From Candidatus Babelota bacterium (GTDB taxonomy: Bacteria; Babelota; Babeliae; Babelales; CAIQNR01), in NCBI GenBank assembly GCA_965658655.1, contig CBFHTA010000002.1, positions 128,001 through 192,000 of the forward strand: a stretch of 64,000 nt of DNA, in the 5' to 3' direction. Positions 35,906 through 60,807 of the stretch are shown one piece after another. The notes below the pieces were generated by a model. That model did no database searches. It saw only the letters and a program-made list of their open reading frames with translations, and was not told the DNA's origin. The translations under genes were made by a program, and so were the position numbers. Numbering within the stretch: position 1 is the first letter of the stretch; each line of letters opens with the position of its first letter.

Positions 35906-38900
35906 TTAGAAATTCACCTGGCCACCCTTAACACGAACACGGCTTACATCTTTGCTAAGGTTTCTAAGATTTCTAATATTCCCTCGTTCTTTTCTCGTTC
36001 CCTCTGTATACCCCTGGTACAGATCATTTATTCTTTCTTTCTGCTGCCCAGTCAAGCGATTATAATAATCTTTTCCTCGAAGATCATCTAAGCTTCTGCC
36101 TCTTTCTTGATACTTTTTTGCTCTACCAAGTGTTTTGTTCCAATCATTCGTATTTTTTCTTTGTTTTCTTTTTTCCATGTTCAGGCGTTCTGGATCTGTG
36201 TCAAGATTGTATAGAGACTCTTGTTGTACCTCTTCGGGGCTCATACCACTAATCTGATTAAGCATATCTCTTTGAGGATCTGTAGTGCTCTTTCCTCCAC
36301 TACCAACACTGGTTTCTGACTGTCCTGCAAGAGACGAACTATCATAGTCAGGAACTGTATCATCTTGAGATTCAGGATCCTCACTCCATGACTTATTACC
36401 CGACAATTGATCTGATAATAAGTTACTACTTGCTTCAATACGCGCTTGCTTTGCTTTATTTAAATCTGCTTCAATACGCACTTGCTCTGCTGCGGATTGT
36501 TTTCCTTTATATCCCGATTGGTTTTCTTGCCATCTCTTAAAATTCTCGCCTTTTGCACCGCCATACCTATCTTCCATTCCAGGAGTCTGAACAAAACTAG
36601 AATCAGACTGTGCTGGCTGCGAATCACTTTCTGAAACCCAATCTGGCCTTAGATAATACTTACCTGCAAGATTAATACCATTCTGAGAAGCATACTCTCG
36701 TGTCTCAGTATAAAGTTCTTTTAATTTAGGATTATCTTTAAGTAATTGGCTAGCATCTGCAGTATTTATCTGTTCCATTAAACTGCCAATTTTAGCAACG
36801 GTGTATTCATCTTTTCCATCTTGCTTAATAGTTGCAAGACGACTTTCCAAAAAATCTAATGTTACATTTTTCAGTAGATCCTTAACCTGATCTATTTCAC
36901 CTTGTTCTAACTGACCACTATTACCTTCAAGGAAACTTTCTAATTCTCGTTTTAGTTTACTCAATGCTTTATTTTTTGTTTCAAAATCTCCATAATCTCC
37001 ATTTTTGATATCTTCAAATCGTTGGTTAAAGTCCTGTACTTTTTTTGTACGAGCCTGCTTTGATGCTTCTTGTTGACGCGCAAGAGCTTCTTCTTGTTCT
37101 CGTTGCTGCCTACGATACTCCTCTTGCGTTCTAGTAGCTTCTTCTTGTATTTTTTGCTTTCTAGTAGCTTCTTCTTGCTTTTTCCTAGCAGCTTCTTTTT
37201 CCCTTGATAATCGCTCTTGATTTAGTTTCTCCCTTGCTGTGCTTTCTTGTTTTATACGATTATCAAAATCATCTAACTCTTTTTGAGATACATTAAGGAT
37301 GTTTTGAGATTCATCTATCTGATCTTTAAACTGGTTGTTATTCTTATAAAAATTAAGTTGACCACTAGCACTGTCTACTTTTGCCTGTAAGCGCTTACGC
37401 TGCTCTTGAATGTCTCCCCATTGGTCAACTCGAAGTGTTCCATTCTTATATGCACTGCTATCCATAGCTCTTTGTATGTTTTCAAAACGTTCACCACTCA
37501 CCAAACCTCCTTCTAATTTATTTCTTAAAAGTGATAAATCGTATTTTTGTTGCTTGGTAGTATATTCTCCTTTACGAAGACGACTTTCTACCTGTTGCAA
37601 TCGCTCTTCAGTTGCGTCAGGACCACTTTTACCCAAGTCTTTTGAAACAGAAAGTGAATTAATCCAATTGTTAATTTGTTCTTGTAAGGATTCCCCATTT
37701 TTTTGTTTTTTTGTATACCAGTCAGGTGGATCTTGCTCATAAGTAGTTTGTATTTCTTGTAAACGAACCATTTCTTCTTTTGGATCTAAACCAGCAGTTT
37801 GATTTAAACCAGAACGAATATGCTTATTTAAGTTTTCTGAACGCTCAATTGGATTTGTAGATCTAGATTTTTTCATAAATTCATCTCTTAGACGATCTAA
37901 ATCTTCAAGGGAACTCTTTACCCTACTTTCCTGGGCGTCGCGTAGCGTATCAGCATTCTTTTGATTATCTTCAGAATCAGCAATCTCTTGCGCTTCACGT
38001 AAACTTTTCATTGAAGCATGATTCATCATGTTACTAGAAGGCTCTTCCACCAAAAGAGTTGCTGCTAAAGCATTCTCTTCTTTAACTCTCTGCTCTTCTC
38101 TGCGATCAGCCTCTCCATGAATAAGTGAGTGCCAATCAGAATCTTTTTTTGATGAATCAGTAGTAGCCCACTGATTAACACGATCCCTTAAATTTCCGTA
38201 AGCATCTGTGACGCCATTTTTCAATTCATCAATACCACTCGAAATCCCAGCAAGAGTGTCCGATTGCCCTTCGCGTGTTGAAACACGGCGTGCCAAGTTA
38301 CTCAATCTGTTCAACGTCTCTGCATCAGGAGTATAAACTCCTGCTTTTATACCATCAACACCCGCTTGAGCATATTGCCTTAACCCTTCAACTCCATCTT
38401 TAATTTGACGTTTCAAACCATCACTTGTGTGTTTTGTCCAATTATTTAATCTATCTTTTATCGTTTGCATATGATCATTAACAACTTGTGTTGTACTTCG
38501 CATATTAGTTCTACGTGATTCCAATTGTTTTATCACACTGCTTAACTTTTTAATCTTATCGTCATATTCCGGTTTAGTTAGATCAGTTTTTTTCAATTCA
38601 TATTCAAGATTTTCTGCTTCTGCCGATAATGCATATATCTCTTTGCGTGTTTTTCCTCCACCCCAATAATCATTAAATCGATCTGCCCAGGTTTTCAATA
38701 CCCCCTTTTTTTCATTATTATTAAAATTATCACTAAAGCCTACCTGATCACCGTCATACGTAACACTTTTACCTCTAAACACCTTGTTGTTTAATTCTCC
38801 AAGGTTGAGACCTCTTTCTGCTTCTTTTGTTGTCATTGGACTTTTATTATCATCACCTACACTAATGCTAGAGGTTGTACCAATATCTGTGCCAGTTATA

Positions 38901-39172
38901 GCTTTTGGTGCTTTTGCTGATGAAGCTTTACCCGAAAATTGCCACCACTTACGATGACTCTGAGACTGCTCCCCTGATTGGCTCGATAACTCGCCATAGT
39001 TTTCGCTAAGATCTCCTTTATTACCCTCTATTTCTGCTTCCTCTGAAGATTGTTCTGGGCCATCAGCTGAAGTAATAGCAGGATCTACAGGTGCCTTAAC
39101 TGGAGCATCCATAGAAAACACTGGTGAAATATTTATTAACAAAACGATTAATAATACTTTGAAACTCTTCAT
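35906..39172 (-). CDS. secreted MD...RGL-family coiled-coil protein (1088 aa)
   Basis: Signal ending PVFS-MD; RGLNL at residue 120; long charged helical regions. Confidence 0.85.
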   Translation of the reverse strand: MKSFKVLLIVLLINISPVFSMDAPVKAPVDPAITSADGPEQSSEEAEIEGNKGDLSENYGELSSQSGEQSQSHRKWWQFSGKASSAKAPKAITGTDIGTTSSISVGDDNKSPMTTKEAERGLNLGELNNKVFRGKSVTYDGDQVGFSDNFNNNEKKGVLKTWADRFNDYWGGGKTRKEIYALSAEAENLEYELKKTDLTKPEYDDKIKKLSSVIKQLESRRTNMRSTTQVVNDHMQTIKDRLNNWTKHTSDGLKRQIKDGVEGLRQYAQAGVDGIKAGVYTPDAETLNRLSNLARRVSTREGQSDTLAGISSGIDELKNGVTDAYGNLRDRVNQWATTDSSKKDSDWHSLIHGEADRREEQRVKEENALAATLLVEEPSSNMMNHASMKSLREAQEIADSEDNQKNADTLRDAQESRVKSSLEDLDRLRDEFMKKSRSTNPIERSENLNKHIRSGLNQTAGLDPKEEMVRLQEIQTTYEQDPPDWYTKKQKNGESLQEQINNWINSLSVSKDLGKSGPDATEERLQQVESRLRKGEYTTKQQKYDLSLLRNKLEGGLVSGERFENIQRAMDSSAYKNGTLRVDQWGDIQEQRKRLQAKVDSASGQLNFYKNNNQFKDQIDESQNILNVSQKELDDFDNRIKQESTAREKLNQERLSREKEAARKKQEEATRKQKIQEEATRTQEEYRRQQREQEEALARQQEASKQARTKKVQDFNQRFEDIKNGDYGDFETKNKALSKLKRELESFLEGNSGQLEQGEIDQVKDLLKNVTLDFLESRLATIKQDGKDEYTVAKIGSLMEQINTADASQLLKDNPKLKELYTETREYASQNGINLAGKYYLRPDWVSESDSQPAQSDSSFVQTPGMEDRYGGAKGENFKRWQENQSGYKGKQSAAEQVRIEADLNKAKQARIEASSNLLSDQLSGNKSWSEDPESQDDTVPDYDSSSLAGQSETSVGSGGKSTTDPQRDMLNQISGMSPEEVQQESLYNLDTDPERLNMEKRKQRKNTNDWNKTLGRAKKYQERGRSLDDLRGKDYYNRLTGQQKERINDLYQGYTEGTRKERGNIRNLRNLSKDVSRVRVKGGQVNF

Positions 39173-42912: not shown

Positions 42913-43635
42913 TTAATCACGCTCCAGTGAACTATCCAAAAACGCTGGGTCATCGCCTTCTAAATAACCGAATGATACTAAACCGCTCTCTCCCAAAAAT
43001 TCTTTTAGAATGCAATTTGCCTTTTCATTCAAAAAAACATCATTGAATGCTGCTGCTCCCGGCTCTCTTGAATCTTTGTCAGCCGAAGAAGGTGCTGCAG
43101 CGCCCTCTCCATCTTCCATTTGTTTTTCTAAAGTATCTTTTTTTCCCCAACAGCACTCTTTTTTATGCCCCTGAAGAAGATCTTCTCTCCAAAACTTCTT
43201 GTTACAGTCACCACAACAATAGCTGGGTTTACAGCCATACTTCCGACTTCTTGAAACATGCGTTGCAAGCTTACTTACTTCTGAAAAAGACTCATCACAA
43301 AAAAGGCACCCAAACCTAACCCCTAAATCTCTTAATACCACTATTTTAGCTTGCTTTTTTTCTGTGTATTCTTTTTTTCCTGCTCGCCATTTTTTTGTAT
43401 GTGGATTTTGTGTTACTAGCTTGTTAGCTTTATCTTTATAATTATGGATTGTTAATCTTTTGCCGCAAGGCAGCAATACATTATACTTTGGCTTTTTATG
43501 AACCACATATCCCTCAACTCTCATTGTTTTTTGCTGTAGAGGAGGATGAATAAAAGGTATATTTGCAGCCGAAATGTTCATACTAGATAACATAATTCCA
43601 CTAACAATAATAAAAAAACTGTTTTTATTCTGCAT
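42913..43635 (-). CDS. secreted zinc-finger protein, tandem paralog of 42103..42813
   Basis: Near-identical termini; CLFCDESFSEVSKLATH and CGDCNKKFWREDLLQGHKKEC. Confidence 0.75.
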   Translation of the reverse strand: MQNKNSFFIIVSGIMLSSMNISAANIPFIHPPLQQKTMRVEGYVVHKKPKYNVLLPCGKRLTIHNYKDKANKLVTQNPHTKKWRAGKKEYTEKKQAKIVVLRDLGVRFGCLFCDESFSEVSKLATHVSRSRKYGCKPSYCCGDCNKKFWREDLLQGHKKECCWGKKDTLEKQMEDGEGAAAPSSADKDSREPGAAAFNDVFLNEKANCILKEFLGESGLVSFGYLEGDDPAFLDSSLERD

Positions 43636-44386
43636 TAAGAATTATCTCCTCTAGCTGTTTTTTATCTTTCATTAAATTATCCTCCAGTTCATGGTTGAGT
43701 TGACGATGCAATAGTTGCAACTCTTTACACTGTTTGCTTGGTTTTCTCTGTAAAAATGTACTAATTATATTTTGATGTTCTATAGTTTCTACGTGATCTT
43801 GATAACTCTCTCTACTAGCATAAGAAAAAAAAGTTCCTAAAGACAAACTGCACTCAAGACATTCCCTCTTTTTTCCTTTTAGCTTTCTGCCTTTTTGGAT
43901 TAATGATATTAACTTTTTATGGGTGGAGACCGAAACTTTCTGTGCGGGACCATCTTTGCCTTTTTTCACTCCCAATCCGTTATTCATTACTGAATTAACA
44001 AGAGCACCTTTACATTCTTTTTCTATATGTCTATAACATTTCCCATACCTATCAAAAAGACACTTACAAGACTTACACTTCCAACTGGTCAAATGACTCT
44101 CTACATGAGCATTGATTCCGCTTTTTGCCATTCCTTTACCTTGTCTACCCAAAGATAAAGTGCAATCCGGCCAAAGACACTCGTATCTACCTTCACCATA
44201 AGGCTCTATCCACTTGTCTACGCCTTCGACTAATCCACATAATGGCTTTCTTGTAATGTTATCTATCTTGACCATTAAGTTTCTTCTATCCCTGTATGCG
44301 CGTGAATATTCACATTTCTCATTTTTATCTGCTGCCCCTACTGATGATTGATTAATACATAAAAATAAAAGAACTATCCGCTTCAT
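43625..44386 (-). CDS. secreted protein with three zinc-finger-like motifs
   Basis: Signal-like MKRIVLLFLC; YECLWPDC...HVESH, CKSCKCLFDRYGKCYRHIEKEC and CLEC...HVETIEH. Confidence 0.7.
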   Translation of the reverse strand: MKRIVLLFLCINQSSVGAADKNEKCEYSRAYRDRRNLMVKIDNITRKPLCGLVEGVDKWIEPYGEGRYECLWPDCTLSLGRQGKGMAKSGINAHVESHLTSWKCKSCKCLFDRYGKCYRHIEKECKGALVNSVMNNGLGVKKGKDGPAQKVSVSTHKKLISLIQKGRKLKGKKRECLECSLSLGTFFSYASRESYQDHVETIEHQNIISTFLQRKPSKQCKELQLLHRQLNHELEDNLMKDKKQLEEIILNAE

Positions 44387-44662
44387 ATGCGCCTTCCACA
44401 AATAAAATTACATTATTTTTGTGCATAGACTTTCCATGCGTTATATAGATATAAAACATTTTATTTTATACGCAACACTAAAGGATAATTCAATACTCTA
44501 AGCAAGTCGCTTCTTATAGCACAAACAAAAATCATGGTGCTCATAAGCAACGTAATGAATCATATTGCCCTCACTTTAGACATTTAGCCACAACCTGAAT
44601 GTAAATACTAGTGGATGTCACCTTGATTCTTTAGTAATTCTAATTCTCCTCCCTATTGACTA

Positions 44663-45229
44663 TTATCTTTTATGTGCCATTTCTCGAGAAGTAGCAAATC
44701 CACTATAAGAAGTATAAAAAGGACCTTTCAAAGATTGCTGCCACCCGTCAACCTCATGATGTTGAGAAGCTATATGTGAAGCCATTTTTTCATAATTACT
44801 ACGGGTCTCTTTGCACACAGCACACTGAGTTTTTCCATATTTTAACATCTCAACATTGCATCTCAAAGAGGTTCTTAACCTATCTTGTTCTGTTATTGTT
44901 AATAACTTTAAAGATGCACCATCTTGTTTATAAGCATACTCAAAAATATCATCCGATACGCGTGCACCAATTAATGCAACTTTCTTCGTTTTACCACGCG
45001 CTTTCTTAGATACACTTTTCTGAGCTCCTGAATCATTACTAGATTTGTTTTTATTTAAACCGGATTCTCTTTTTAATCTTGCTTCTTCTTTCTTTTTTAC
45101 ATCAAGCATTTCAGCCATTATAGAAACTACGCTTTTTTCTCTATCAGTAAGAACAGCTTGAGTACCTCCAGACATAACAGATACTGTCACCAAGCTTAAA
45201 CCCATAAAAAATACTAATTTCTTACTCAT
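44663..45229 (-). CDS. secreted basic protein with one C2H2 zinc finger
   Basis: Signal-like N-terminus; CAVCKETRSNYEKMASHIASQH (C-x2-C-x12-H-x4-H). Confidence 0.7.
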   Translation of the reverse strand: MSKKLVFFMGLSLVTVSVMSGGTQAVLTDREKSVVSIMAEMLDVKKKEEARLKRESGLNKNKSSNDSGAQKSVSKKARGKTKKVALIGARVSDDIFEYAYKQDGASLKLLTITEQDRLRTSLRCNVEMLKYGKTQCAVCKETRSNYEKMASHIASQHHEVDGWQQSLKGPFYTSYSGFATSREMAHKR

Positions 45230-45445: not shown

Positions 45446-46057
45446 ATGTTGAGTGAAAAAAATCTTATTCGCGACGGATTGTGTTTAGTTGTTTTGGTGT
45501 TTTTAGTACGCCATGTATTTACGCAACAATATATTAAACACGCATCAAAAAGAACGCTCGCAAAACATGCTGTAAATATACAAATGAAAAAAATTAAAGC
45601 TAGTGTTTCTAACACTGCTTCAAAAGTGAAAAAGCATGTTAAAAAAGGGGTGCGTACTACCATCAATTCAAAACAAGCTCAACTAGAAGAACATACTAGT
45701 GCTTTATTACAACAACTTAAAAATGCACAAGAAGCCCTTGATAAAACAGATCTTTTAACAGACAAAGAACGCACAACATTAGCACTCGACATTAAAACCA
45801 TTCGCTCTCATATTGAACACATAAAAAAAGAATCTTCTAAAGAACCTCACGAGTTGGGATTGCTCTCTGGACCAGCGTTAACAACAGCTAAAGAAGTACA
45901 CAAACGCAGCTTGGATAAAAAGCTATTACAAGCTACAAACAACACCAGCTTTGTTCTTTTAACCCTATACAACGAAATATTGGGACAGGACAAAAAAATA
46001 AACCCCGCAACATCTGTGTCACAAGGTTTACAACGTAATCAATCACTACTTATTTAA
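45446..46057 (+). CDS. hypothetical membrane-anchored helical protein
   Basis: GGGGGA RBS before ATG 45446; one hydrophobic segment followed by a basic coiled-coil-like region. Confidence 0.55.
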   Translation: MLSEKNLIRDGLCLVVLVFLVRHVFTQQYIKHASKRTLAKHAVNIQMKKIKASVSNTASKVKKHVKKGVRTTINSKQAQLEEHTSALLQQLKNAQEALDKTDLLTDKERTTLALDIKTIRSHIEHIKKESSKEPHELGLLSGPALTTAKEVHKRSLDKKLLQATNNTSFVLLTLYNEILGQDKKINPATSVSQGLQRNQSLLI

Positions 46058-46162: not shown

Positions 46163-48133
46163 TTACTCGTCAAGGTCATCTGGGTCATACGGCTCATAAT
46201 TTAAATCATCTTGCATACCATGTTTTGGACCTTCAACCTCTGTCTGCTCGGGTGTAAAAATATTATTTCTAGCTTCATTTTCAGCTTCTAACTTCTTCTG
46301 CGCTGCCTCCATATCTTTTGCCCGGTTGCTTTTGATTCTTGCTTCATCAGGTCTCTTTAAAAATGATTGAAATTCTTTTTCTTCTTCCTCTTCATTCAGG
46401 ACTCTATCACCATCATCATCATCGCTTCTACCATTACCTTCCATCTCACTCAAAGCACGATCCATCTCGTTAGGATCGAAATCATTAGGATCGACATCAT
46501 TATCATCGGTACTACTTGAACCTTGTTCCCCTAAATCTAAAATATTACCATCGGTGCTACTTTCATTTCTATCGAAATTACCAAGATTTAAAGTTTGAGA
46601 ACCATCATCGTCATCGTCATCATCGTCGTCATCCCAGTCATCCTCTTCGCCATCATCGTCGTCATCCCAGTCATCCTCTTCGCCATCATCATCGTCATCA
46701 TTATTGCTGCTATTAGACACATTTTCAGGTGCCTGATTGCGATCACGAAGAGCATTTTTCAGGCCTTCAGCAAGAATATCACTATAGCTATCAACAGTTG
46801 CAGCGTCTGAATAAGGTGTTAACAACTCTTGTGCTTTTGTTTCAAGTTTATCCACTTTCTTACTTAACGACTTTCGAGAACGATTATCTTCAGGTAACTT
46901 TTGAATTTTTTCTTTAAGACCATCAACTCTTAATCGTAGCATTTCATCTTTTATGTCTCGTACCTTTATACGAAGTTGTGCATCATTCGGACGAGCCTTT
47001 TGTTTAGCCTCTACATCTGTAAGTTCTATTTGCTTTACACTAATAGATTCCGCTGTTTCTGGTGATATATTGTATATGGTGGCATTACGCTGAGCACCTT
47101 CAACCATCTCTTCTTGTTTTCTCAATGCACTATCAATATCTGAATTAAGATTCTCAACAGAAGTAAAAAGCTTTTCTCTTTTTTTATCAACCGCATCAGC
47201 GGCATCTCTACCAACTTTCCCTAATGTTTTGCCACTCTTTCTTTCTTCAATTTCACGATCAAGGCGAGCAATACCCCCTTTTTCAAGAGCACCTTGACTT
47301 ACCTTGCCATACTCTCTTAAACGACCTTCAATTGTATCCAAATCTGCATCTGTTCTTGCTCTGTCTATTTCCCTTGAAAAACTATCAACATTATTGGCAT
47401 CTCTCCCACTCCGGGTCCACGTACTTTCTGTTAATTTCTTACCATCTGTCTCTTCTCGAAGTACTTGGTTTGCACGATCTTCAAAATTTTGTAGTTGTTT
47501 CTCAACAAGAGCTTTTTGTTCTTCTGTAGGATTGTCTTCTTGTACCCATTGATCTATTCTCTTATTAATCTCATTAACTTTTTCTCTAATTACACCTAAT
47601 GATGACTCTGAAGTATCTCTCACTACACCAGTCCATGAAGAATCTATAAAATTAGACGATTGTTCTATTTCTTTAACAAAATCTTCAGCTTTTACAGAGT
47701 TATCCACATTTTTAGCTTCTTCAATTCTTCCCCTGTCACTTTCAAATTCTAGTCCACGCTCAGAACTTATAGCATCCGTAGCAACCTGTTCATTTGCACT
47801 TTCTTGCTCACTACCTTCCTCTAAACTCGAAGTTCCACCTTGCGCAACGTCCTGTAAACTTTCTAAAGATGTTGAACTTCCTGACGGGAAATCCACCATT
47901 CCTTCATCTGAAGATGTACGTGAAGGATTTTCATACAAACTTTCTGTATCATCATCATCATGATCAGGATCTACATTTTCGGGATCATCTTGCTCGCTAT
48001 CAGAATCACCAGTCTGTCTAGTTATATCAGTAGATACATCATGGTCTGGGGCAACGTCAATACCATCCATCGACCATAGAGCAATTGAAGTACTTAATAA
48101 TAAAAATAAAAGTAAACGAATATTTTTTTTCAC
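46163..48133 (-). CDS. secreted MD...RGL-family acidic protein with WASP-like central-acidic motif
   Basis: Signal ending LWS-MD; RGLEF at residue 126; ILAEGLKNALRDR followed by (DDDDGEEDDWD)x2. Confidence 0.8.
   Translation of the reverse strand: MKKNIRLLLFLLLSTSIALWSMDGIDVAPDHDVSTDITRQTGDSDSEQDDPENVDPDHDDDDTESLYENPSRTSSDEGMVDFPSGSSTSLESLQDVAQGGTSSLEEGSEQESANEQVATDAISSERGLEFESDRGRIEEAKNVDNSVKAEDFVKEIEQSSNFIDSSWTGVVRDTSESSLGVIREKVNEINKRIDQWVQEDNPTEEQKALVEKQLQNFEDRANQVLREETDGKKLTESTWTRSGRDANNVDSFSREIDRARTDADLDTIEGRLREYGKVSQGALEKGGIARLDREIEERKSGKTLGKVGRDAADAVDKKREKLFTSVENLNSDIDSALRKQEEMVEGAQRNATIYNISPETAESISVKQIELTDVEAKQKARPNDAQLRIKVRDIKDEMLRLRVDGLKEKIQKLPEDNRSRKSLSKKVDKLETKAQELLTPYSDAATVDSYSDILAEGLKNALRDRNQAPENVSNSSNNDDDDDGEEDDWDDDDDGEEDDWDDDDDDDDDDGSQTLNLGNFDRNESSTDGNILDLGEQGSSSTDDNDVDPNDFDPNEMDRALSEMEGNGRSDDDDGDRVLNEEEEEKEFQSFLKRPDEARIKSNRAKDMEAAQKKLEAENEARNNIFTPEQTEVEGPKHGMQDDLNYEPYDPDDLDE
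46621..46686. repeat. 33-bp perfect tandem repeat x2 inside an Asp-codon tract
   Basis: CATCGTCGTCATCCCAGTCATCCTCTTCGCCAT repeated twice. Confidence 0.9.
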
Positions 48134-48142
48134 AACAAATCC

Positions 48143-48994
48143 CTACTTGCGTAAAACATACCTCTTAAACCACTCCTGCGCTAATTCTTCTGCCTTCTTT
48201 TCATTCTTTTTATATAAAGCTTGACCAGTTTTTTTTGCATTCTTAATAAACTCATCTTTAAATCTTTCTTTAATTCTCTTAGCTTCGATACTATTTGCCC
48301 AACTTTCTTTACCAGCCTGATCTATAATACCTTCTTGAGCAGCTTCCCAATAAGGGGTATTTGCAGCGCCACTTACAATAGCACGTATACCAGATGCATC
48401 GCGTTTATCTTCAATATATTGCGACAGTGCTTTTACATCATCTGGATGAAATTGAGACAAAGGTAAAAGCGCCTCTACCATTGCTTTTGGATCTTTGTTA
48501 AATTCATCATCTATAAATCTTTGCCATTCTCCTCTATCTTTTGCACTTAATAATCCAACAGTGTCGTCTCCAACTTGCGTTGCATTATTTAACATTGCTT
48601 TATCTGCTTTTAGTTGTTCTTTTGCACTATCTTTACCGAGCGCACGGTTCACCATAGAAGAAGCTTTACTGGTATAACTTGTGACAAGATGATCTCCAAG
48701 CAGAACCGCCCCATCAACAACTGTATTTACGACTGGAACATCTAGGTCATTTTCATAGGGACTAGGTGAATCAACATTTAGTTTTTTTCTTGGAGGCGGA
48801 GGTGGACCATACATTTCTGGTTCACTATACTCCACTGGTCTTGGTTCTGGACCATATACAGGAAGAACCGGGCGAAACTCTTGACTACGTTCATTTGAAT
48901 TGTACACTTTATCGTATGAACCTGATTGTAGTAAAAGAGGAACCATACTCACAAAAGCAAACAGGATCAAACCTATACATACCTTTTTATTCAT
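48143..48994 (-). CDS. secreted Pro-rich hypothetical protein
   Basis: Signal peptide; YGPEPRP and YGPPPPPRKK. Confidence 0.75.
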   Translation of the reverse strand: MNKKVCIGLILFAFVSMVPLLLQSGSYDKVYNSNERSQEFRPVLPVYGPEPRPVEYSEPEMYGPPPPPRKKLNVDSPSPYENDLDVPVVNTVVDGAVLLGDHLVTSYTSKASSMVNRALGKDSAKEQLKADKAMLNNATQVGDDTVGLLSAKDRGEWQRFIDDEFNKDPKAMVEALLPLSQFHPDDVKALSQYIEDKRDASGIRAIVSGAANTPYWEAAQEGIIDQAGKESWANSIEAKRIKERFKDEFIKNAKKTGQALYKKNEKKAEELAQEWFKRYVLRK

Positions 48995-49047: not shown

Positions 49048-50550
49048 TTATTGATGTCTATTATAATACTCCATTAATGTTTGCTTGCTATAAACTCCAG
49101 TATCAGGAATGCCACTCCATCCTTGTCCATTTTTTGGATCTGAAGAAGGATCTCTTTTAAGTTTATTTGCTATAACAGCATAATGATTTAACCATTCCCT
49201 ATCCTTCAAAGACAATGCTCCAAATTCCTTTCCCACACGCGTAGGAAGAGGTAATCCTGGAAGCGATGAAGCTTTCCTTATTGGTACTAAGAGATCTGTA
49301 TCTGATTCAGAAGCAACTGGAGTTGTTTGGTATCCAGTAGTGGAAGTCGCTGACAATTGCATACCTGGTTGCAAAAAAGCTGGAGTTTTTTTAGAAGCCG
49401 GTGGTGGTGGTGCCATTCCAGTTCTACCAGTCGGAAGGTCATCAAATACTCCTAGCGCTGCTTGTCCTGATTGCGAACTATAACCTGTAGATATGCTCGG
49501 TTGATACAATGATCCAGGTCCTGGTTGTTCTGGTTGTGGACCATACTCTGCAGGTCTTCTTCTTAACGCTCCTGAATTTTGTCCTCCTGGAGCTGCTTGT
49601 CCTGATTGCGTTGACAATTGAGACTTTACACCAAACCATTTTAATGCTCTATTAATCCCTTCTCTAGCAGCCATATCTGCACCTGATTTAAGATCCCCTT
49701 TAATATCTTTATAAATCTCTCTACCTAAACCTCCAGTTTCTTTACCAATTTGAGTATTTGATGCCCATTGTGCACCTTGTTGAAAACGTTCTCTAGCAGC
49801 ACCCCAGTTACTTGATGTGTTTGAATTTTCAGTAACAGCATTCAGCACTTGCTTCTGCTCTTCCAGTGAGAAATCAAAGAAACCTTTAACCCGTGCTAAT
49901 TGTGCACCTGTATAACCTTTCTCTTTGACATAGTATTGTATCCATTGCTGCACAAGATTTTCTTCTTGTGGATCAACTGAAGTTGAGCTCGCAGTAGAAC
50001 TTACTGCAGAATTAGTAGCAGTTATTTGAGATGTATTTGCACCACTATTTCTCTGTTGTAACGATGCGTAAAAGGAAAGAGTTGTTTGATCTGATAAACT
50101 TAAACTTTGATAATTTGGTTCTGCTTTTAACTGGTCAACTGATATGTTATTTTGAGCAATAAACTGCTTCCATTGCTCCAATTCAGCTGGACTTAAATTT
50201 CCATCATCACTCTCATAACCAGAGCTCTGATCTAATAGATTTTGTTGATCAGCACTTGTTTGGAATCCAGATTGAGAAGCACTTTGATAATTAAGCAAAT
50301 CATTCTGTTGTTCAGGAGTAAAGCTATCAAAACCATCTTCTTGTGCTACGTCATAACCTTTATTATTATCTATCCAATCTTTCCAAGGCTGTGTTGCTGG
50401 ATCACTAGCAACCTGTGGCGCTTCTAGCGATGCTCCTTGATATGTACTAGCACCTTGTAAAAATTCGGGTCCAGAACCAGCTTGCCCATCGGTAACCCCA
50501 ACAAGGGTCAAGATTGCTAACACCAAACATGTCATATTTAACTTTTTCAT
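49048..50550 (-). CDS. secreted Gln/Ser/Pro-rich protein with W-containing helical repeats
   Basis: GGAGGA RBS before MKKLNM; three similar ~35-aa units; YGPQP and PPPP motifs. Confidence 0.75.
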   Translation of the reverse strand: MKKLNMTCLVLAILTLVGVTDGQAGSGPEFLQGASTYQGASLEAPQVASDPATQPWKDWIDNNKGYDVAQEDGFDSFTPEQQNDLLNYQSASQSGFQTSADQQNLLDQSSGYESDDGNLSPAELEQWKQFIAQNNISVDQLKAEPNYQSLSLSDQTTLSFYASLQQRNSGANTSQITATNSAVSSTASSTSVDPQEENLVQQWIQYYVKEKGYTGAQLARVKGFFDFSLEEQKQVLNAVTENSNTSSNWGAARERFQQGAQWASNTQIGKETGGLGREIYKDIKGDLKSGADMAAREGINRALKWFGVKSQLSTQSGQAAPGGQNSGALRRRPAEYGPQPEQPGPGSLYQPSISTGYSSQSGQAALGVFDDLPTGRTGMAPPPPASKKTPAFLQPGMQLSATSTTGYQTTPVASESDTDLLVPIRKASSLPGLPLPTRVGKEFGALSLKDREWLNHYAVIANKLKRDPSSDPKNGQGWSGIPDTGVYSKQTLMEYYNRHQ

Positions 50551-50653
50551 AGGTCTTCCTCCATTATTAGACCAAAACATTATTACTATCTGAAATATTA
50601 ACATGCCAGATAAGTAAAAAACAAGAAAAATATTAAAAAATCTTATTGTAAGC

Positions 50654-51399: not shown

Positions 51400-53031
51400 T
51401 TACTCACCGCCTTTCTCTTTCAAGCTCTTTTGTAGATCCTGAATAAAAGGAGATAAAGGATAACGATAAGTACGTGACAATCGTTGCTCATCTGTTAATG
51501 CATCTTTAGCATTGACTACAAAAACAGCACCTTCTGAAGTTTTAAAGACTATTCTTTTCTTTCTTACTGCTTTTCTTAATTCAGTACGCAAGTCTTTCAT
51601 ATTAGATACTTTAGTACCATTAATCTCTTCTATAATAGCTCCCGGTTGAATAACCACTAACCGATCAACCAACGAACTTGGCATAACATGCGTTACAATA
51701 AGCGCTGGTTCCATTTGATGCTTAAACTCTGCGTATTTAATAAGAGCCGGTGCATGAGACAAAAGTGTTTGTACAAGATTTAAATTCAATGGTTGGAATA
51801 ACATACCACTAAAGATCTCGTAATCTAATGGATCTTCCCCCACAATCACTTTTTTAACTGGTGCATCATCTACATAATTAAATTTGAACGAAATATTTTT
51901 TTGCTTACCATTTCGATACAGAAGCAATGTAATATCTTGCCCTTCTTCCCAACGAGTAATAAAGTCCATAAAAGAAAGCTTTTCTTCATTCCAAGGCACC
52001 TTTAAATCACCATATTCATCAATTGGCAACCCATTCACTTCGTAAATCATATCGCCACTTTTTACCCCTGATTTGGCAAGGGGACCATTCGGATGAACCT
52101 CAATAACATAACAACCACTTGGTACCGGATTACCCAAATGCTTTGCTAAATCATAGCTTCCATTACCAACCAATACACCTAAGAAAGGACGACGTAATAC
52201 TTTTCTTGTACGTAAATCATTACATATCATTTTCAATTCATTAACCGGAATAATGTACCCAACATTTTGTGCGCTTACAATTCCTGCTACAGAAACACCA
52301 ATAACTTCTCCATTCAAGTTCAATGCAGGGCCACCAGAACTTCCGGGGTTAATAGGAGACGAAATTTGAATTAAATATTTACCACCCAAATGCTCTCTTC
52401 CACTTACTACACCAGAAGTACTCTTTAATGATGCTTGCCCTAAAGGATAACCTAATGCAAGTACTTCATCAGCACGATGAAGCAAATCTGAATCACCCAG
52501 TTTTAAGAACGGAAGTTGATCTGTTCCTAAAACACGTTTAATCATTTCTTTACCTTGTGGAGTAATACGGAGCAATGCCAAATCTCGCTCTGGAGCTTTA
52601 CCTAAAACTTCTACTGGAATAATCGCTTTCCCCATAGATGGAATTTTAATCCAAACAGATTGCGCTTGATTAACTACATGCATGTTAGTGACTATTTCAC
52701 CCTTATCACTAATAAAAAAACCGCTTCCAAAGCCACCACCTTGAGCAGGTGTTTCGTATGGTTTTAATATATTAATTTCAGCTGTTTGAGCAATAACCTG
52801 AACTACTGTATCTTTTGCCAATGACTGCACTTTTGCCCACGGTTGAGCCGACACCATTTTCTCTACAACTTTAACCTCTCCTTTGGGCCTATAGTCATAC
52901 CTCATTGTTCCACTAAGTGCCGCAAGAGAACGTGATAATTCTTTTTGGTTTTCGTAACCTACATACAAGAAACAACCAAAAACTAACACTACCGCAAGTA
53001 TCAAAATTCTTTTTAAGAAGCGCATATTCAT
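51400..53031 (-). CDS. HtrA/Deg-type trypsin-like serine protease with PDZ domains
   Basis: GSGF, TNMHVV, RDLALL and INPGSSGGP motifs; N-terminal anchor. Confidence 0.9.
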   Translation of the reverse strand: MNMRFLKRILILAVVLVFGCFLYVGYENQKELSRSLAALSGTMRYDYRPKGEVKVVEKMVSAQPWAKVQSLAKDTVVQVIAQTAEINILKPYETPAQGGGFGSGFFISDKGEIVTNMHVVNQAQSVWIKIPSMGKAIIPVEVLGKAPERDLALLRITPQGKEMIKRVLGTDQLPFLKLGDSDLLHRADEVLALGYPLGQASLKSTSGVVSGREHLGGKYLIQISSPINPGSSGGPALNLNGEVIGVSVAGIVSAQNVGYIIPVNELKMICNDLRTRKVLRRPFLGVLVGNGSYDLAKHLGNPVPSGCYVIEVHPNGPLAKSGVKSGDMIYEVNGLPIDEYGDLKVPWNEEKLSFMDFITRWEEGQDITLLLYRNGKQKNISFKFNYVDDAPVKKVIVGEDPLDYEIFSGMLFQPLNLNLVQTLLSHAPALIKYAEFKHQMEPALIVTHVMPSSLVDRLVVIQPGAIIEEINGTKVSNMKDLRTELRKAVRKKRIVFKTSEGAVFVVNAKDALTDEQRLSRTYRYPLSPFIQDLQKSLKEKGGE

Positions 53032-53115
53032 GGAGTATATCCCCGGTTAAAGATTCAAAAATCCTCTATCAGTTTACTCTTTTTACCAAGCTTGGGAAGG
53101 GCAGAAAAAAAATAA

Positions 53116-54711
53116 TTACGCCCCTAAAAGCTCTTGTACTAATGGTGTAATTTGATAATTAAACGACTGGGAAAGGCGTTTTTCATCTTGTAACATCTGT
53201 TGTGTATCTAAGATAATTAAATTATCATCTTTTGTTTTGAATGTAGTAAATTCACGATCCTTTGAAAGTGTCAATGCTTGGCGAGCATCTTTGAGACAAG
53301 ATACTTTATGATCATTAATCTTTACTACAATGTCTCCCACTCCAATAGCCCGTGTCTGCTGAGCGCATGAAGTTGCAAAAACTTGTGTAACAATAAGAGC
53401 AGGAACCTCTCTATGCGCTTCTTCAAAAGTATAAGAACCTAGTGAATCAGCAACAGCAGGTAACTGTTGCGCCACTTCTGGATCTCTGAAAAAACTCACC
53501 AAGTTCAACGAAAGATCTTGCAATAAAACACCACCAACAATTTCGTAATCTATAGCATCATAGGGAACATACTTCCAGTTAACTGGAGGCTCTTCTGGGC
53601 AATGAACCAATCCTTTAAATATTTTTTTCACCCCATTCCTATACACTTCTAATTCAATAGGACTATTAAGAGGAAGCGAAGACATATAGTCAGACACGCT
53701 CATTCGATCATTTTGTCCTGAAATCTTAACAGTTCCGTATACATCAGCAGCATACCCATTAACACGATATAACATGTCACCTGCTTGCAAACCCAAAATA
53801 TGTAACAAACCATGCTCATGTATTTGTGTTAAGTAACAACCACTCGGAGTCGGATTATTAAAAAAACGTGCAAGTTCATCACCTGAAGCATAACAATAAC
53901 GAGCGCCTAGGTAAGGCTTTCTAACAAGAGACGATTTTAGCATATCATTTTGAATTAATTTAAACTCTGCAATAGGAAGTGCATAACCAATATTCTGAGC
54001 ATTCACGTTTCCTGCAGTGTTAATACCAACAACTTCACCTTGCTTGTTGAGTGTGGGTCCACCAGAACTTCCTGGATTAATTGGTGTGCTCACTTGAATA
54101 CAACGCGATTCTACCAGTCTGCCCCTACCGGTTGTAATAGTTATATGCTCTCTTCCACTCACAACACCCGTACAACTTTTTAGAGCTTCTTGACCCAACG
54201 GAAACCCTAAAGCAAGTAACTCATCTGAACGTTCAATTTTATCTGAATCACCAAATACTAAATACGGTACGAATGTGTTTATATCTTTAATAAGAGCGCA
54301 ATCTTCGGGAGAAATTTGTAAAAGCGCAAGATCTCGTTCAGGACACACACTTTTAATTGTTACTTCAATCATTTTTTTACCGAATAAAAGAGGCATTTGA
54401 ATCCCCACATTCAATGCACCTGCTACCACATGGTAATTGGTAAGAAGCAAACCATCTTCACTAATCAAAAACCCCGAACCTCTACCTTCTTCACTTTCCA
54501 TTCGATACGGTTTCACAACATTAGGCTCTACACCATAAGAAAAAACTTGAACTACTGCATGCTCAGATTCTTTTTGAATCTCATACCAAGTTCTATCATT
54601 TTTAGTTGGCCCCCTTAAAATAGCGCTCAAAGAACCTAACGAATACACAAGTCCCGGGCAACCAATCAAAAAACCAAAAATAATCACTTTCTTAAGAGAA
54701 GAACTTTTCAT
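53116..54711 (-). CDS. HtrA/Deg-type serine protease with PDZ domains (tandem paralog)
   Basis: GSGF, TNYHVV, RDLALL and INPGSSGGP motifs. Confidence 0.9.
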   Translation of the reverse strand: MKSSSLKKVIIFGFLIGCPGLVYSLGSLSAILRGPTKNDRTWYEIQKESEHAVVQVFSYGVEPNVVKPYRMESEEGRGSGFLISEDGLLLTNYHVVAGALNVGIQMPLLFGKKMIEVTIKSVCPERDLALLQISPEDCALIKDINTFVPYLVFGDSDKIERSDELLALGFPLGQEALKSCTGVVSGREHITITTGRGRLVESRCIQVSTPINPGSSGGPTLNKQGEVVGINTAGNVNAQNIGYALPIAEFKLIQNDMLKSSLVRKPYLGARYCYASGDELARFFNNPTPSGCYLTQIHEHGLLHILGLQAGDMLYRVNGYAADVYGTVKISGQNDRMSVSDYMSSLPLNSPIELEVYRNGVKKIFKGLVHCPEEPPVNWKYVPYDAIDYEIVGGVLLQDLSLNLVSFFRDPEVAQQLPAVADSLGSYTFEEAHREVPALIVTQVFATSCAQQTRAIGVGDIVVKINDHKVSCLKDARQALTLSKDREFTTFKTKDDNLIILDTQQMLQDEKRLSQSFNYQITPLVQELLGA

Positions 54712-59786: not shown

Positions 59787-59808
59787 TTGTTTATAGGGAA
59801 ATAATGCT

Positions 59809-60792: not shown

Positions 60793-60807
60793 AAAAAGGA
60801 AAATGTA

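What the first reader, a model, noticed from the sequence alone, without database searches (positions are those of the whole stretch)
46600..46785. WASP/Las17-like central-acidic (CA) Arp2/3-binding motif in a secreted protein
Seen: SDILAEGLKNALRDRNQA, a short Ser/Asn linker, then DDDDDGEEDDWDDDDDGEEDDWDDDD. The Trp-containing acidic unit is duplicated by an exact 33-bp repeat. Established: class I nucleation-promoting factors (WASP, N-WASP, yeast Las17, and bacterial mimics such as RickA) carry an amphipathic C helix of the form LAxxLxxALxxR followed by an acidic tract with a conserved Trp that binds Arp2/3. Inference: this MD...RGL protein mimics host NPFs. No convincing WH2 domain precedes the CA segment (only RKSLSKKV), so it may sequester or inhibit Arp2/3 rather than activate it. 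It might also work with the adjacent polyproline proteins.
Basis: partly seen in the sequence, partly recalled or inferred. Interest (0 to 1): 0.85.

Follow-up and report, generated by a model that had tools for sequence, protein, structure and literature searches.

The report
Acidic-tryptophan Arp2/3-type motif, exported orphan protein
An exported, species-specific protein of an uncultured marine parasite-type bacterium carries a short motif that looks like the part of WASP-family proteins that grips the host's actin-branching machine, and relatives in the same phylum carry full versions of that module, but binding has not been tested.

Summary
Gene 46163-48133 (-) encodes a 656-aa protein with a Sec signal peptide, a helical middle and a disordered acidic tract. 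That tract holds two Trp made by an exact 33-bp duplication, and SDILAEGLKNALRDRNQA precedes it.

The protein is a strict orphan in 5.8 G and 1.84 G protein libraries. It has no WH2, either by Pfam or by a lineage-specific profile.

The genome is a 0.93-Mb Dependentiae (Babeliales) MAG. Pfam WH2 passes its cut-off in 21 of 261 Dependentiae genomes and 0 of 14 controls. Many of these proteins have a signal peptide and end in WH2 - C helix - acidic-Trp, a WASP-like WCA. One lies in the same TlyA-flanked, proline-rich island of a sister genus.

So the acidic-Trp (A) part is well supported as a lineage theme. The C helix is only weakly supported: 2.3 bits against 0.1-12 for true ones. Neither helix nor Trp is kept in the positional counterpart of the sister species.

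Best reading (about 0.45): a WH2-less CA/A-type Arp2/3 ligand, acting as decoy, inhibitor or tether rather than as a nucleator. Main rival: a slippage-expanded acidic spacer.

Five full-text queries pairing Dependentiae/Babelota names with WH2, Arp2 or RickA listed no report of WH2/WCA proteins in this phylum.

The parts
46163..48133 (-). Gene for the 656-aa exported orphan protein (P0001). GTG start, 9 nt after the stop of the upstream gene, with AGGGA 7-8 nt upstream.
   Evidence: only self-hits in two protein libraries
48071..48133 (-). Signal peptide, res 1-21 (KK..R, LLLFLLL, ..ALWS | MDG)
   Evidence: read from the sequence; predicted helix 2-20. Same SP-then-Met layout in the sister-genome island proteins.
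47768..48070 (-). Acidic Ser/Thr-rich disordered N-terminal region, res 22-122 (30% D/E)
46739..47767 (-). Charged helical region, res 123-465
   Evidence: AlphaFold2 single-sequence model, helices 123-465, overall pLDDT 53.5
46853..46876 (-). RKSLSKKV (res 420-427): LKKV-like string, not a WH2
   Evidence: no WH2 by Pfam or by the Dependentiae WH2 profile; lies inside predicted helix 418-442
46730..46783 (-). C-like amphipathic helix SDILAEGLKNALRDRNQA (res 451-468): L454, A455, L458, L462, R465
46700..46729 (-). Ser/Asn-rich linker PENVSNSSNN (res 469-478)
46601..46699 (-). Acidic (A-like) tract with W489 and W500 (res 479-511)
46618..46690 (.). Exact period-33 direct repeat that duplicates the DDDDGEEDDWD unit
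   Evidence: junction-spanning contigs in two runs
46166..46600 (-). C-terminal 145 residues after the acidic tract: disordered, then helices 555-564, 581-592 and 596-623. Includes a 15-bp tandem repeat (46470-46508) encoding DPNDFDPNE.
48143..48994 (-). Upstream 283-aa signal-peptide protein with PPPPP; probably in the same operon. Found only in this genus.
   Evidence: E 1e-18 to the sister-genome 306-aa protein; 2 of 201 genomes
49048..50604 (-). 518-aa signal-peptide, proline-rich protein; first gene after TlyA
45998..46031 (-). Terminator-like hairpin (15 pairs plus a T run), about 130 nt after the stop codon
   Evidence: consensus scan only

Best explanation
P0001 is a fast-evolving protein of a marine Dependentiae (Babeliales) parasite, exported by the Sec pathway and then probably released by a type II secretion system or vesicles. 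After a charged helical scaffold it presents a disordered poly-acidic tract with two Trp. An amphipathic helix with the hydrophobic spacing and Arg of a WASP-type C helix precedes this tract. The most likely mechanism is that this segment acts as a WH2-less CA/A-type ligand of the host Arp2/3 complex. The Trp would insert into the basic Trp pocket on Arp3 and/or ARPC1, and the acidic residues would ride the surrounding positive surface. Because the protein cannot deliver actin monomers, it would compete with host NPFs and sequester, inhibit or tether the complex, as Arpin, the Coro7 CA or the Legionella SidG A domain do, rather than nucleate. Shown here: the sequence features, the absence of WH2, orphan status, export signal, presence of secretion machinery, and the existence of complete WH2-C-A proteins in the phylum and in the equivalent island. 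Inferred: delivery to the host cytosol, Arp2/3 binding, and the inhibitory outcome.
For: (1) The acidic-Trp tract is unique in the genome (1 of 1311 ORFs) and absent from 1618 ORFs of 80 related loci at a >=7/10 D/E flank. (2) The C-type pattern [ILVM][ILVMA]xx[ILVM]xxx[ILVM]xxR follows the N-WASP Arp-facing residues I463, V464, L467, M471 (PMC7274804 passages) and the N-WASP chain printed. It occurs 51 times in 265,385 residues of the genome's ORFs and once in P0001, at res 454 directly before the tract (the pattern was set post hoc). R465 to W489 is 24 residues. (3) With res 395-512 as query, the best of 177,635 PDB sequences is the CapZ-beta/N-WASP WCA chimera 7t5q_J (E 0.025), aligned over helix and acidic tract. 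(4) Lineage context. Pfam WH2 passes its cut-off in 21 of 261 Dependentiae genomes (32 at E<=0.01) and 0 of 14 controls. 17 of 24 such proteins with an N-terminus in the locus look signal-peptide-bearing. 10 of 27 have an acidic Trp after the WH2, 7 of them at the extreme C-terminus. Examples end ...MEKRRGSISEEEEEIQEEEDEEEWQD or ...IIERRSQIVPTIEEEEEWEEE. The WH2 of the G136 protein has N-WASP as its best PDB hit (E 5.8e-4). (5) In sister genus G004 the island between TlyA and the same oxidoreductase (39% identity, E 6e-93) holds eight signal-peptide proteins, several proline-rich, the last of which is a 2xWH2 - C-like - ...DETW protein. P0001 sits in that island next to two polyproline proteins. 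(6) The G246 module SLRDVLAEGLASKFARIREAEDEEDEEDDFWQEE finds P0001 res 448-492 as the best of 5443 background ORFs (E 0.004). Its helix alone also ranks P0001 first (8 of 11 identical, E 0.43). (7) Internal and tandem A motifs have precedents: G154 and G044 proteins, the G245 ending ..DDGWDDDDDDGWY, and the internal A domain of SidG with essential W442 (PMC12904589 passages). (8) An export route exists: GspC-like protein, two secretins and a T2SS ATPase. In Chromulinavorax 44% of CDS carry signal peptides and these are enriched in ORFans (PMC6561590 passages).
Against: There are no homologues at all, so no conservation test is possible. The positional counterpart in the sister genome (466 aa) has no equivalent helix (SRLDEPINN) and has Tyr/Phe instead of Trp. 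A C-helix profile from 10 WH2-anchored modules gives P0001 only 2.3 bits on the excised segment, against 0.1-12.0 (median about 7) for left-out true motifs. It gives no positive domain in whole-protein mode and ranks P0001 683 of 3350 proteome-wide. P0001 lacks the RR and the following Ile/Leu of the lineage consensus. The N-WASP PDB hit is marginal and not robust. FAP44 scores almost the same (E 0.054), the helix alone finds no NPF, and the 70-aa CA alone finds nothing. An acidic Trp is not specific in this phylum. Of the 11 other genomes matching [DE]4-W-[DE]3, 3 carry it in the tails of GyrA or an M24 peptidase, 7 in small non-secreted acidic proteins, and only 1 in a WCA protein. The two Trp come from one recent exact duplication, so they count as one event. 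The PICK1 precedent shows that an A-like tract without a C helix need not bind (PMC8810855 passages). The host and the delivery route to the host cytosol are unknown.
Confidence: 0.45

Rival explanations
1. The acidic tract is a slippage-expanded low-complexity spacer of a rapidly evolving exported ORFan, with no dedicated Arp2/3 contact (for example a solubility or entropic bristle, or cation binding). Any function would lie in the helical domain, and the CA resemblance would be chance.
For: Exact 33-bp duplication and a second 15-bp repeat. Orphan status. The C helix is not recovered by profile. Sister-genome island proteins carry poly-Asp tails with Tyr/Phe or no aromatic residue. Acidic-Trp tails occur on housekeeping and small cytosolic proteins in the phylum. 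The finding was picked from a very large scan, so chance motif co-occurrences are expected.
Against: Such tracts are very rare in this genome and its relatives. Trp is two or three base changes away from Asp/Glu codons. The helix pattern occurs once in the protein, at the right place and distance. The lineage and the island demonstrably deploy WCA modules.
Confidence: 0.3
2. P0001 activates rather than blocks. It would be a class II-type or split NPF in which the A (CA) segment recruits Arp2/3, while the long helical region binds F-actin, or the neighbouring polyproline proteins supply profilin-actin.
For: It is probably in one operon with two signal-peptide polyproline proteins (9-nt gap). 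The 343-residue helical scaffold has unknown function. Cortactin uses an A domain together with F-actin binding (PMC8810855 and PMC12592476 passages).
Against: There is no WH2 or FH2 anywhere in the genome, which is 95% complete. The polyproline is not conserved in the sister-genome homologue of the 283-aa protein. There is no evidence of actin binding.
Confidence: 0.1
3. The acidic-Trp units mimic a different eukaryotic short linear motif, such as the kinesin-1 light-chain W-acidic motif, adaptor/COPI Trp-acidic motifs, or an acidic activation domain that works with the neighbouring zinc-finger-like secreted proteins.
For: There are two Trp-acidic units in tandem. Three adjacent signal-peptide proteins have sub-threshold C2H2-type zinc-finger matches. 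Gadkin is cited among regulators that carry a related acidic (A) domain and sequester Arp2/3 (PMC8810855 passage); its additional kinesin light-chain binding is recalled, not checked.
Against: By motif definitions that I recall and did not check here, the kinesin motif wants Leu/Met two residues before Trp (here Asp), and an Atg8-type motif wants Leu/Ile/Val three residues after Trp (here Asp). Activation domains usually carry several bulky hydrophobic residues.
Confidence: 0.08
4. The protein never reaches the host. It would be a periplasmic or surface structural protein whose acidic tract binds cations or envelope components.
For: It has only a Sec signal, with no recognisable T3SS/T4SS signal. 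A large share of Dependentiae CDS carry signal peptides (PMC6561590 passages).
Against: There is no lipobox, beta-barrel or anchor. The island is genus-specific and evolves fast, as host-interaction genes do. T2SS parts are present. Relatives with the same export signal carry WH2 motifs that have no target in a bacterium.
Confidence: 0.07

Closest known systems
WCA region of WASP-family class I NPFs (N-WASP; PDB 7t5q_J chimera)
   Same: An amphipathic helix with hydrophobic residues at i, i+1, i+4, i+8 and an Arg 3 residues later. About 24 residues after that Arg comes an acidic tract with a Trp flanked by acidic residues. This entry is the best PDB sequence hit. The Trp-pocket logic is described in PMC7274804.
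   Different: No WH2. The motif is internal rather than C-terminal. There is a 10-residue Ser/Asn linker between C and A. The Trp unit is duplicated. The match is marginal (E 0.025) and is lost when helix or CA is searched alone. There is no homology outside the motif.
WH2-less CA/A regulators of Arp2/3: Arpin, Coro7 CA, cortactin N-terminal acidic domain, gadkin
   Same: An acidic tract with a key Trp and no actin-delivering WH2. The expected outcome is inhibition, sequestration or tethering (PMC8810855 and PMC12592476 passages).
   Different: These are eukaryotic proteins with the motif at a terminus. The Arpin C helix has its own Trp that locks the Arp3 tail. P0001 shares no sequence relationship with them and its C helix is unproven.
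Legionella pneumophila SidG A domain
   Same: A bacterial effector of a protist-adapted intracellular bacterium. It has an internal Asp/Glu-rich A domain (res 432-444) with an essential Trp (W442) that is necessary and sufficient to bind Arp3 (PMC12904589 passages).
   Different: SidG is Dot/Icm-translocated, has a Cys-His-Asp catalytic triad and is gated by Rac1. P0001 has a Sec signal, no catalytic domain and a much longer acidic tract.
Bacterial WCA mimics RickA (Rickettsia) and ActA (Listeria)
   Same: A bacterial protein presenting WASP-type Arp2/3-binding elements. ActA appears in the A-domain alignment legend of PMC12904589. Details on RickA are recalled.
   Different: These carry actin-binding WH2-type elements and activate nucleation on the bacterial surface. 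P0001 has no WH2.
Signal-peptide WH2-C-A proteins of Dependentiae found here (e.g. L108/G136, L142/G041, L143/G185, L154/G035, L145/G003, L135/G154, L128/G245, L011 8912-10030/G004)
   Same: Same phylum, same Sec-type leader, and an acidic-Trp element about 14-20 residues after the C-helix Arg pair (24 in P0001). One sits in the same TlyA-oxidoreductase island. The G245 protein also has two Trp, and G154 and G044 have internal motifs.
   Different: They have one to three WH2 motifs (Pfam 23-36 bits) and a C helix with ..RR..[IL]. P0001 has neither, and there is no detectable homology outside the motif.

Membership tests
Class I NPF WCA module (WASP/Scar/N-WASP type) | WH2 actin-monomer-binding motif N-terminal to C | tested here: not met
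   Pfam gives no WH2 at E<=10 on res 395-512 or on the whole protein. The whole-genome best is 10.9 bits, E 0.62, in another contig. A profile of 29 Dependentiae WH2 motifs gives a best of -1.5 bits at res 299-308, rank 411 of 2765.
Class I NPF WCA module (WASP/Scar/N-WASP type) | C: about four-turn amphipathic helix whose hydrophobic face binds Arp2/Arp3, with a conserved Arg | tested here: inconclusive
   Predicted helix 444-465 (pLDDT about 58). The pattern L454/A455/L458/L462/R465 is met and occurs only once in the protein. The lineage C profile gives 2.3 bits against a leave-one-out range of 0.1-12.0, no positive domain in whole-protein mode, and rank 683 of 3350. A helix-only PDB search finds no NPF.
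Class I NPF WCA module (WASP/Scar/N-WASP type) | A: acidic tract with a Trp flanked by acidic residues | tested here: met
   EEDDWDDDD occurs twice. It is the top hit of the CA profile without composition correction (E 6e-6, hmm 37-50 on res 479-492). It is unique in the genome.
Class I NPF WCA module (WASP/Scar/N-WASP type) | CA at the extreme C-terminus | tested here: not met
   145 residues follow the tract. Exceptions exist: SidG and the G154 and G044 proteins.
Class I NPF WCA module (WASP/Scar/N-WASP type) | Binds and activates Arp2/3 complex | not testable with these tools
   No eukaryotic Arp2/3 sequence can be passed to the complex predictor, and no bench data exist.
WH2-less CA/A-type Arp2/3 ligands (Arpin, Coro7 CA, cortactin NtA, gadkin, SidG) | Acidic domain with an essential Trp and no WH2 | tested here: met
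   The family features are taken from passages in PMC8810855, PMC12592476 and PMC12904589.
WH2-less CA/A-type Arp2/3 ligands (Arpin, Coro7 CA, cortactin NtA, gadkin, SidG) | Trp-dependent binding to Arp3 (or ARPC1) | not testable with these tools
   Needs pull-down, ITC or a structure.
Dependentiae signal-peptide WH2-C-A proteins (defined here) | Sec-type signal peptide | tested here: met
   Read from the sequence. 17 of 24 WH2 proteins with an N-terminus in the locus look alike by a crude rule.
Dependentiae signal-peptide WH2-C-A proteins (defined here) | Sequence homology beyond the short motifs | tested here: not met
   BLASTP and phmmer of P0001 against 25 WH2-locus sequences written (a few are wrong-frame segments) give nothing better than E 0.047. 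There is no match to the L108 or L128 proteins in G000.
Kinesin-1 W-acidic motif / Atg8-interacting motif (definitions recalled, not checked) | Leu/Met at -2 of Trp (KLC); Leu/Ile/Val at +3 of Trp (LIR) | tested here: not met
   Both Trp read D-D-W-D-D-D. The motif definitions come from memory.

The most novel reading that the evidence does not exclude
Dependentiae (Ca. Babelota), the protist-parasite phylum with no described type III or type IV effector system, use Sec-signal proteins as a phylum-wide toolkit against host actin. Complete WASP-like WH2-C-A nucleation-promoting mimics occur in roughly one genome in ten. In this genus the module has been cut down to a WH2-less CA protein with a duplicated Trp unit. 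That protein would act as an Arp2/3 decoy within a TlyA-flanked island of polyproline effectors. If so, Sec/T2SS- or vesicle-delivered proteins reach the host cytosol, and Arp2/3 is a recurrent target of this phylum.
Probability: 0.35. Interest if true: 0.8.

Novelty: new member of a known kind. Interest (0 to 1): 0.62.

Why it matters
Almost nothing is known about how Dependentiae manipulate their protist hosts. The only cultured marine member is described mainly as having many signal-peptide ORFans. A recognisable Arp2/3-directed motif in such an ORFan gives concrete, cheaply testable effector candidates, especially together with clear WH2-C-A proteins elsewhere in the phylum. Those proteins were not found in any paper listed by the full-text searches run here. 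It would also give a way to ask whether Sec-exported proteins of these bacteria reach the host cytosol. Finally, it would add a natural WH2-less CA variant with tandem Trp units to the small set of Arp2/3 inhibitors and tethers. If the motif proves inert, it is a useful warning that acidic-Trp tracts alone over-predict Arp2/3 ligands.

Tried and rejected
- **Homologue searches.** Only self-hits. 0 of 40 relatives matched, except a spurious poly-Asp match in G026 inside an unrelated 648-aa protein.
- **BLASTP against the sister-genome island proteins.** Nothing found. A Smith-Waterman z of 4.3 against the 466-aa counterpart is driven by the poly-Asp run.
- **ESM Atlas on res 395-512.** No usable hit.
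- **PDB sequence controls.** The sister-genome 404-aa tail, the helix alone, the CA alone and the G246 CA gave no NPF hit.
- **HMMER profiles of CA with default composition correction.** They suppress P0001 entirely (bias 65-72 bits), so only the run without null2 is informative, and that run is compositional.
- **An early 5-module C profile.** It had no power.
- **Sequencing runs.** No RNA holder is listed. Contigs of three runs from one study show no variation in the gene, so there is no population-level test.
- **Fold search.** Not run, because the model is low-confidence (pLDDT 53.5).
- **Complex prediction.** Not run. Arp2/3 subunits cannot be supplied, and I do not claim that the neighbouring proteins bind.
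- **Paper searches.** 'Dependentiae'+'actin' was useless because it matches Actinobacteria. 'arp2 3' does not match 'Arp2/3'. 'Dependentiae'+'Arp2' listed 2 papers, neither on this by title. 'WH2'+'Dependentiae' gave 0. Genus names with WH2/RickA showed no co-occurrence among the 15 listed of 54. 'Babelota' with WH2/Arp2 showed none among the 8 listed of 478.
Not evaluated beyond noting MDG after the leader and ERGLEF at res 125-130.
Full report
**The observation**

The finding lies in a minus-strand gene, 46163-48133, encoding a 656-aa protein, P0001. SDILAEGLKNALRDRNQA is at res 451-468 and the linker PENVSNSSNN at 469-478. Next comes DDDDDGEEDDWDDDDDGEEDDWDDDDDDDDDDG at 479-511, with W489 and W500.

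The duplication is exact. 46621-46653 equals 46654-46686, and exact period-33 identity runs from 46618 to 46690. TRF reports period 33, 2.9 copies and score 162. Short contigs spanning the repeat junction (46628-46680) are present without differences in two runs of one marine plankton study, one of which may be the source.

**The protein**

The N-terminus is a typical Sec leader (KK, R, LLLFLLL, ALWS|MDG). The GTG start lies 9 nt after the stop of the upstream gene, with AGGGA in front. A terminator-like hairpin follows about 130 nt after the stop.

A single-sequence AlphaFold2 model has low confidence overall (pLDDT 53.5) and gives this layout:
- leader helix 2-20;
- disorder 21-122;
- helices 123-465, the last of which (444-465) covers the C-like segment;
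- disorder 466-548;
- three short helices to res 623.

The mature protein has pI 4.2 and is 28% Asp+Glu. Pfam finds no family.

**The organism and its export machinery**

The window is part of a 928,713-bp, four-contig genome that is 95% complete with 37% GC. The 80 closest TlyA loci carry titles of Dependentiae, Babeliales or TM6 MAGs.

The genome encodes a GspC-like protein, two secretins and a T2SS-type ATPase. For the cultured marine Dependentiae Chromulinavorax, 44% of CDS carry signal peptides. These are enriched in ORFans and are regarded as putative effectors (PMC6561590, passages read).

**Rarity of the motif and orphan status**

P0001 matches only itself among 5.8 billion clustered proteins and among 1.84 billion representatives read by HMMER. 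It has no match in 40 related genomes apart from a spurious poly-Asp hit.

The acidic tract is not a genomic habit:
- 1 of 1311 ORFs >=80 aa has a Trp flanked by >=8 of 12 D/E;
- 2 of 1311 have any window with >=9 of 12 D/E;
- in 80 related loci (1618 ORFs >=100 aa), none has a Trp with >=7 of 10 acidic neighbours;
- only 4 of those 1618 have a >=9 of 12 tract, and two of the four lie in the syntenic island of the one other genome of this genus.

In the sister genome the TlyA gene (78% identical) is followed by signal-peptide ORFans. The 306-aa one is a homologue of the window's 283-aa polyproline protein (E 1e-18). That family was found in 2 of 201 genomes of the order, both in this genus.

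The gene after it is the positional counterpart of P0001, a 466-aa protein. It ends in a poly-Asp tail with Tyr and Phe but no Trp. The stretch opposite the C-like helix reads SRLDEPINN. Another island protein (404 aa) has ...LQIASLARNKTEENDRENPDDDDDDEDSEQW....

No pairwise similarity is detectable. So acidic tails with aromatic residues persist in this island, but the specific helix and Trp are not shown to be conserved.

**Comparison with known NPFs**

With res 395-512 as query, the best of 177,635 PDB sequences is 7t5q_J, a CapZ-beta/N-WASP WCA chimera (E 0.025, 18.4 bits). The alignment runs over the helix (GLKNAL against GIVGAL) and the acidic tract.

This match is marginal. FAP44 scores 17.3 bits. 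The helix alone finds only designed proteins. The 70-aa CA alone finds nothing.

The paper on NPF-bound Arp2/3 names I463, V464, L467 and M471 as the Arp-facing side of the N-WASP C helix. It places the A-region Trp in a pocket between an Arg and a Pro, surrounded by positive charge (PMC7274804, passages).

P0001 has L454, A455, L458, L462 and then R465 in that spacing. A pattern written from this occurs 51 times in 265,385 residues of the genome and once in P0001. The residue classes were chosen after seeing the sequence. A looser form is expected in about 8% of 25-residue windows.

**No WH2**

- Pfam reports none at E<=10.
- The best match in the whole genome is 10.9 bits on another contig.
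- FH2 is absent.
- A profile built from 29 Dependentiae WH2 motifs scores P0001 at -1.5 bits elsewhere in the protein.
- RKSLSKKV lies inside a predicted helix.

**The turn in the evidence: WCA proteins across the phylum**

A scan of 261 Dependentiae genomes for [DE]4-W-[DE]3 hit 12 genomes. The reversed-pattern control hit none. Most hits are not effectors:
- tails of GyrA and of an M24 peptidase in 3 genomes;
- small 73-110-aa proteins without a leader, with an N-terminal helix and a poly-acidic Trp/Phe tail, in 7 genomes. In one genus these lie between transaldolase and a lipoate/biotin ligase gene.

One hit, in G136, is a 492-aa signal-peptide protein ending ...GLLQQIQQGKQLRPV...SSLEQSIIERRSQIVPTIEEEEEWEEE. 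Pfam WH2 scores it 19.1 bits. Its best PDB hit is N-WASP (3m3n_W, E 5.8e-4).

Searching Pfam WH2 over the phylum gave 32 of 261 genomes at E<=0.01 and 21 of 261 over the curated cut-off. The 14 control genomes gave 0. In the window's own family it is 4 of 15 genomes. In its own genus it is 0 of 2.

Of 27 WH2-bearing frames examined:
- 17 of the 24 with an N-terminus in the locus look signal-peptide-bearing;
- 10 have an acidic Trp after the WH2 by a strict rule, 7 of them at the extreme C-terminus;
- four more end ..SEWD..DEAW or ..DETW.

Aligned, ten WH2-anchored modules give a clear C consensus (..L...[LI]...[IML]..RR..[IL]) followed by the acidic Trp.

Variants exist:
- an internal WCA with 290 residues after it (G154);
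- an internal acidic Trp (G044);
- two WCA modules with a terminal ..DDGWDDDDDDGWY (G245);
- a WH2-less form with proline-rich repeats and SLRDVLAEGLASKFARIREAEDEEDEEDDFWQEE (G246).

**The island context**

In G004, of the same family, the interval between TlyA and an oxidoreductase holds eight signal-peptide proteins, several proline-rich. The last is a 372-aa protein with two WH2 motifs, a C-like helix and a ...DETW end. That oxidoreductase matches window gene 34596-35765 (39% identity, E 6e-93). P0001 and its two polyproline neighbours occupy the same island.

**How well P0001 fits the lineage's CA**

- A part, good fit. The full CA profile without composition correction ranks P0001 first of 3376 reported targets (5443 background ORFs searched), at E 6e-6, through res 479-492.
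- C part, weak fit. The excised segment scores 2.3 bits against 0.1-12.0 (median about 7) for left-out true motifs. There is no positive domain in whole-protein mode. Proteome-wide rank is 683 of 3350. P0001 lacks the RR..[IL].
- Nearest relative of the segment. The G246 module finds P0001 res 448-492 as the best of 5443 ORFs (E 0.004, composition uncorrected). Its helix alone also ranks P0001 first (DSLRDVLAEGL against DSYSDILAEGL, 8 of 11 identical), but at E 0.43.

**Mechanism**

Papers read in passages give the relevant precedents:
- CA or A elements without WH2 bind Arp3 at the site used by NPFs. The CA of Arpin and the isolated CA of Coro7 inhibit polymerisation, although full-length Coro7 does not inhibit and instead debranches. 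The paper proposes that the A domain acts as a hook in cortactin and delocalises the complex in gadkin (PMC8810855, PMC12592476).
- Legionella SidG uses an internal A domain with an essential Trp to bind Arp3 (PMC12904589).
- PICK1 has an A-like tract without a C helix and does not bind.

I therefore read P0001 as most likely a WH2-less CA/A-type Arp2/3 ligand that would compete with host NPFs and sequester, inhibit or tether the complex. My confidence is about 0.45. The sequence features, the export signal, the absence of WH2 and the lineage context are shown. Delivery, binding and outcome are inferred.

The chief rival, at about 0.3, is a slippage-expanded acidic spacer whose resemblance is chance. 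The non-conservation in the sister genome, the weak C helix, and the acidic-Trp tails on non-secreted proteins all support it.

**Novelty**

Bacterial proteins with WASP-type Arp2/3-binding elements are known (ActA, RickA, SidG). P0001 would be a new member, from a phylum where none is described.

I found no earlier scan note on this. No listed paper joins Dependentiae/Babelota names with WH2, Arp2 or RickA (listings only, and supplements were not read).

Noticed in passing
Loci L108 (49-1527 +), L142, L143, L164, L154, L166, L145, L135 (1291-2640 +), L128 (2-889 +), L011 (8912-10030 +), L139-L168: Signal-peptide proteins with Pfam WH2 motifs followed by a C helix and an acidic-Trp end (WASP-like WCA) occur across Dependentiae. 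WH2 passes its cut-off in 21 of 261 genomes and 0 of 14 controls. The full-text queries run here listed no paper that reports WH2 or WCA proteins in Dependentiae/Babelota.
   Followed up: partly
L107 1485-1808 (-), L109 1491-1712 (-), L110 1414-1641 (+), L111, L112 1291-1578 (+), L113 1255-1587 (+), L114 1458-1703 (-): Small (73-110 aa) proteins without a signal peptide: a short N-terminal helix, then a poly-acidic tail with several Trp/Phe. Found in seven genomes of three families. In one genus they are conserved between transaldolase and a lipoate/biotin ligase gene. Function unknown.
   Followed up: partly
window 42913-45229 (-), three genes: Three adjacent signal-peptide ORFans with sub-threshold C2H2/C2HC zinc-finger matches (best 20.7 bits against a cut-off of 27). 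They are possible secreted eukaryote-like DNA- or protein-binding factors in the same island.
   Followed up: no
window 48143-48994 (-) and 49048-50604 (-): Two signal-peptide proteins with polyproline stretches (YGPPPPPRKKL; MAPPPPASKK, PGLPLPTR), probably in one operon with P0001. The 283-aa one is restricted to this genus (2 of 201 genomes), and its sister-genome homologue lacks the PPPPP.
   Followed up: partly
L011 2032-8738 (+) (G004 island): Seven signal-peptide proteins in a row, several with repeated proline-rich units (APPLPIRTVKPGE, KRPVPAP, PPIPPKP), upstream of the WH2 protein. This looks like a dedicated SH3/profilin/EVH1-ligand island.
   Followed up: no
window 46470-46508: A 15-bp tandem repeat (2.6 copies) inside the same gene, giving DVDPNDFDPNE. 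This is a second slippage-type repeat.
   Followed up: no
G000 C1:435000-435926 (L095 1001-1927 +): An M23 peptidase with an internal TDDWDDL string, which fits the W-x-x-L pattern of Atg8-interacting motifs as I recall it. It may be chance.
   Followed up: no
window 4679-12472 (-) and 35906-39172 (-): A 2597-aa ORF and a 1088-aa ORF with no Pfam family at E<=1e-5.
   Followed up: no
window 51400-54711 (-); 58800-61791 (+): Two tandem HtrA/DegP-like protease genes and three tandem EamA-family transporter paralogues.
   Followed up: no
L012 (record title): The closest TlyA locus (79% identical) bears a record title naming Alteromonas naphthalenivorans, while its neighbours in the list are Dependentiae/Babeliales MAGs. 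The taxonomic label is probably wrong.
   Followed up: no
L132 (G246) and L138/L128 (G245): Large secreted proteins sharing a repeated unknown N-terminal domain (..YFTVPRE..NAGGQML.QLF.PK..). In G245 the domain is followed by tandem WH2-C-A modules. In G246 it is followed by three proline-rich repeats and a WH2-less CA. Part of L132 is masked (N).
   Followed up: partly
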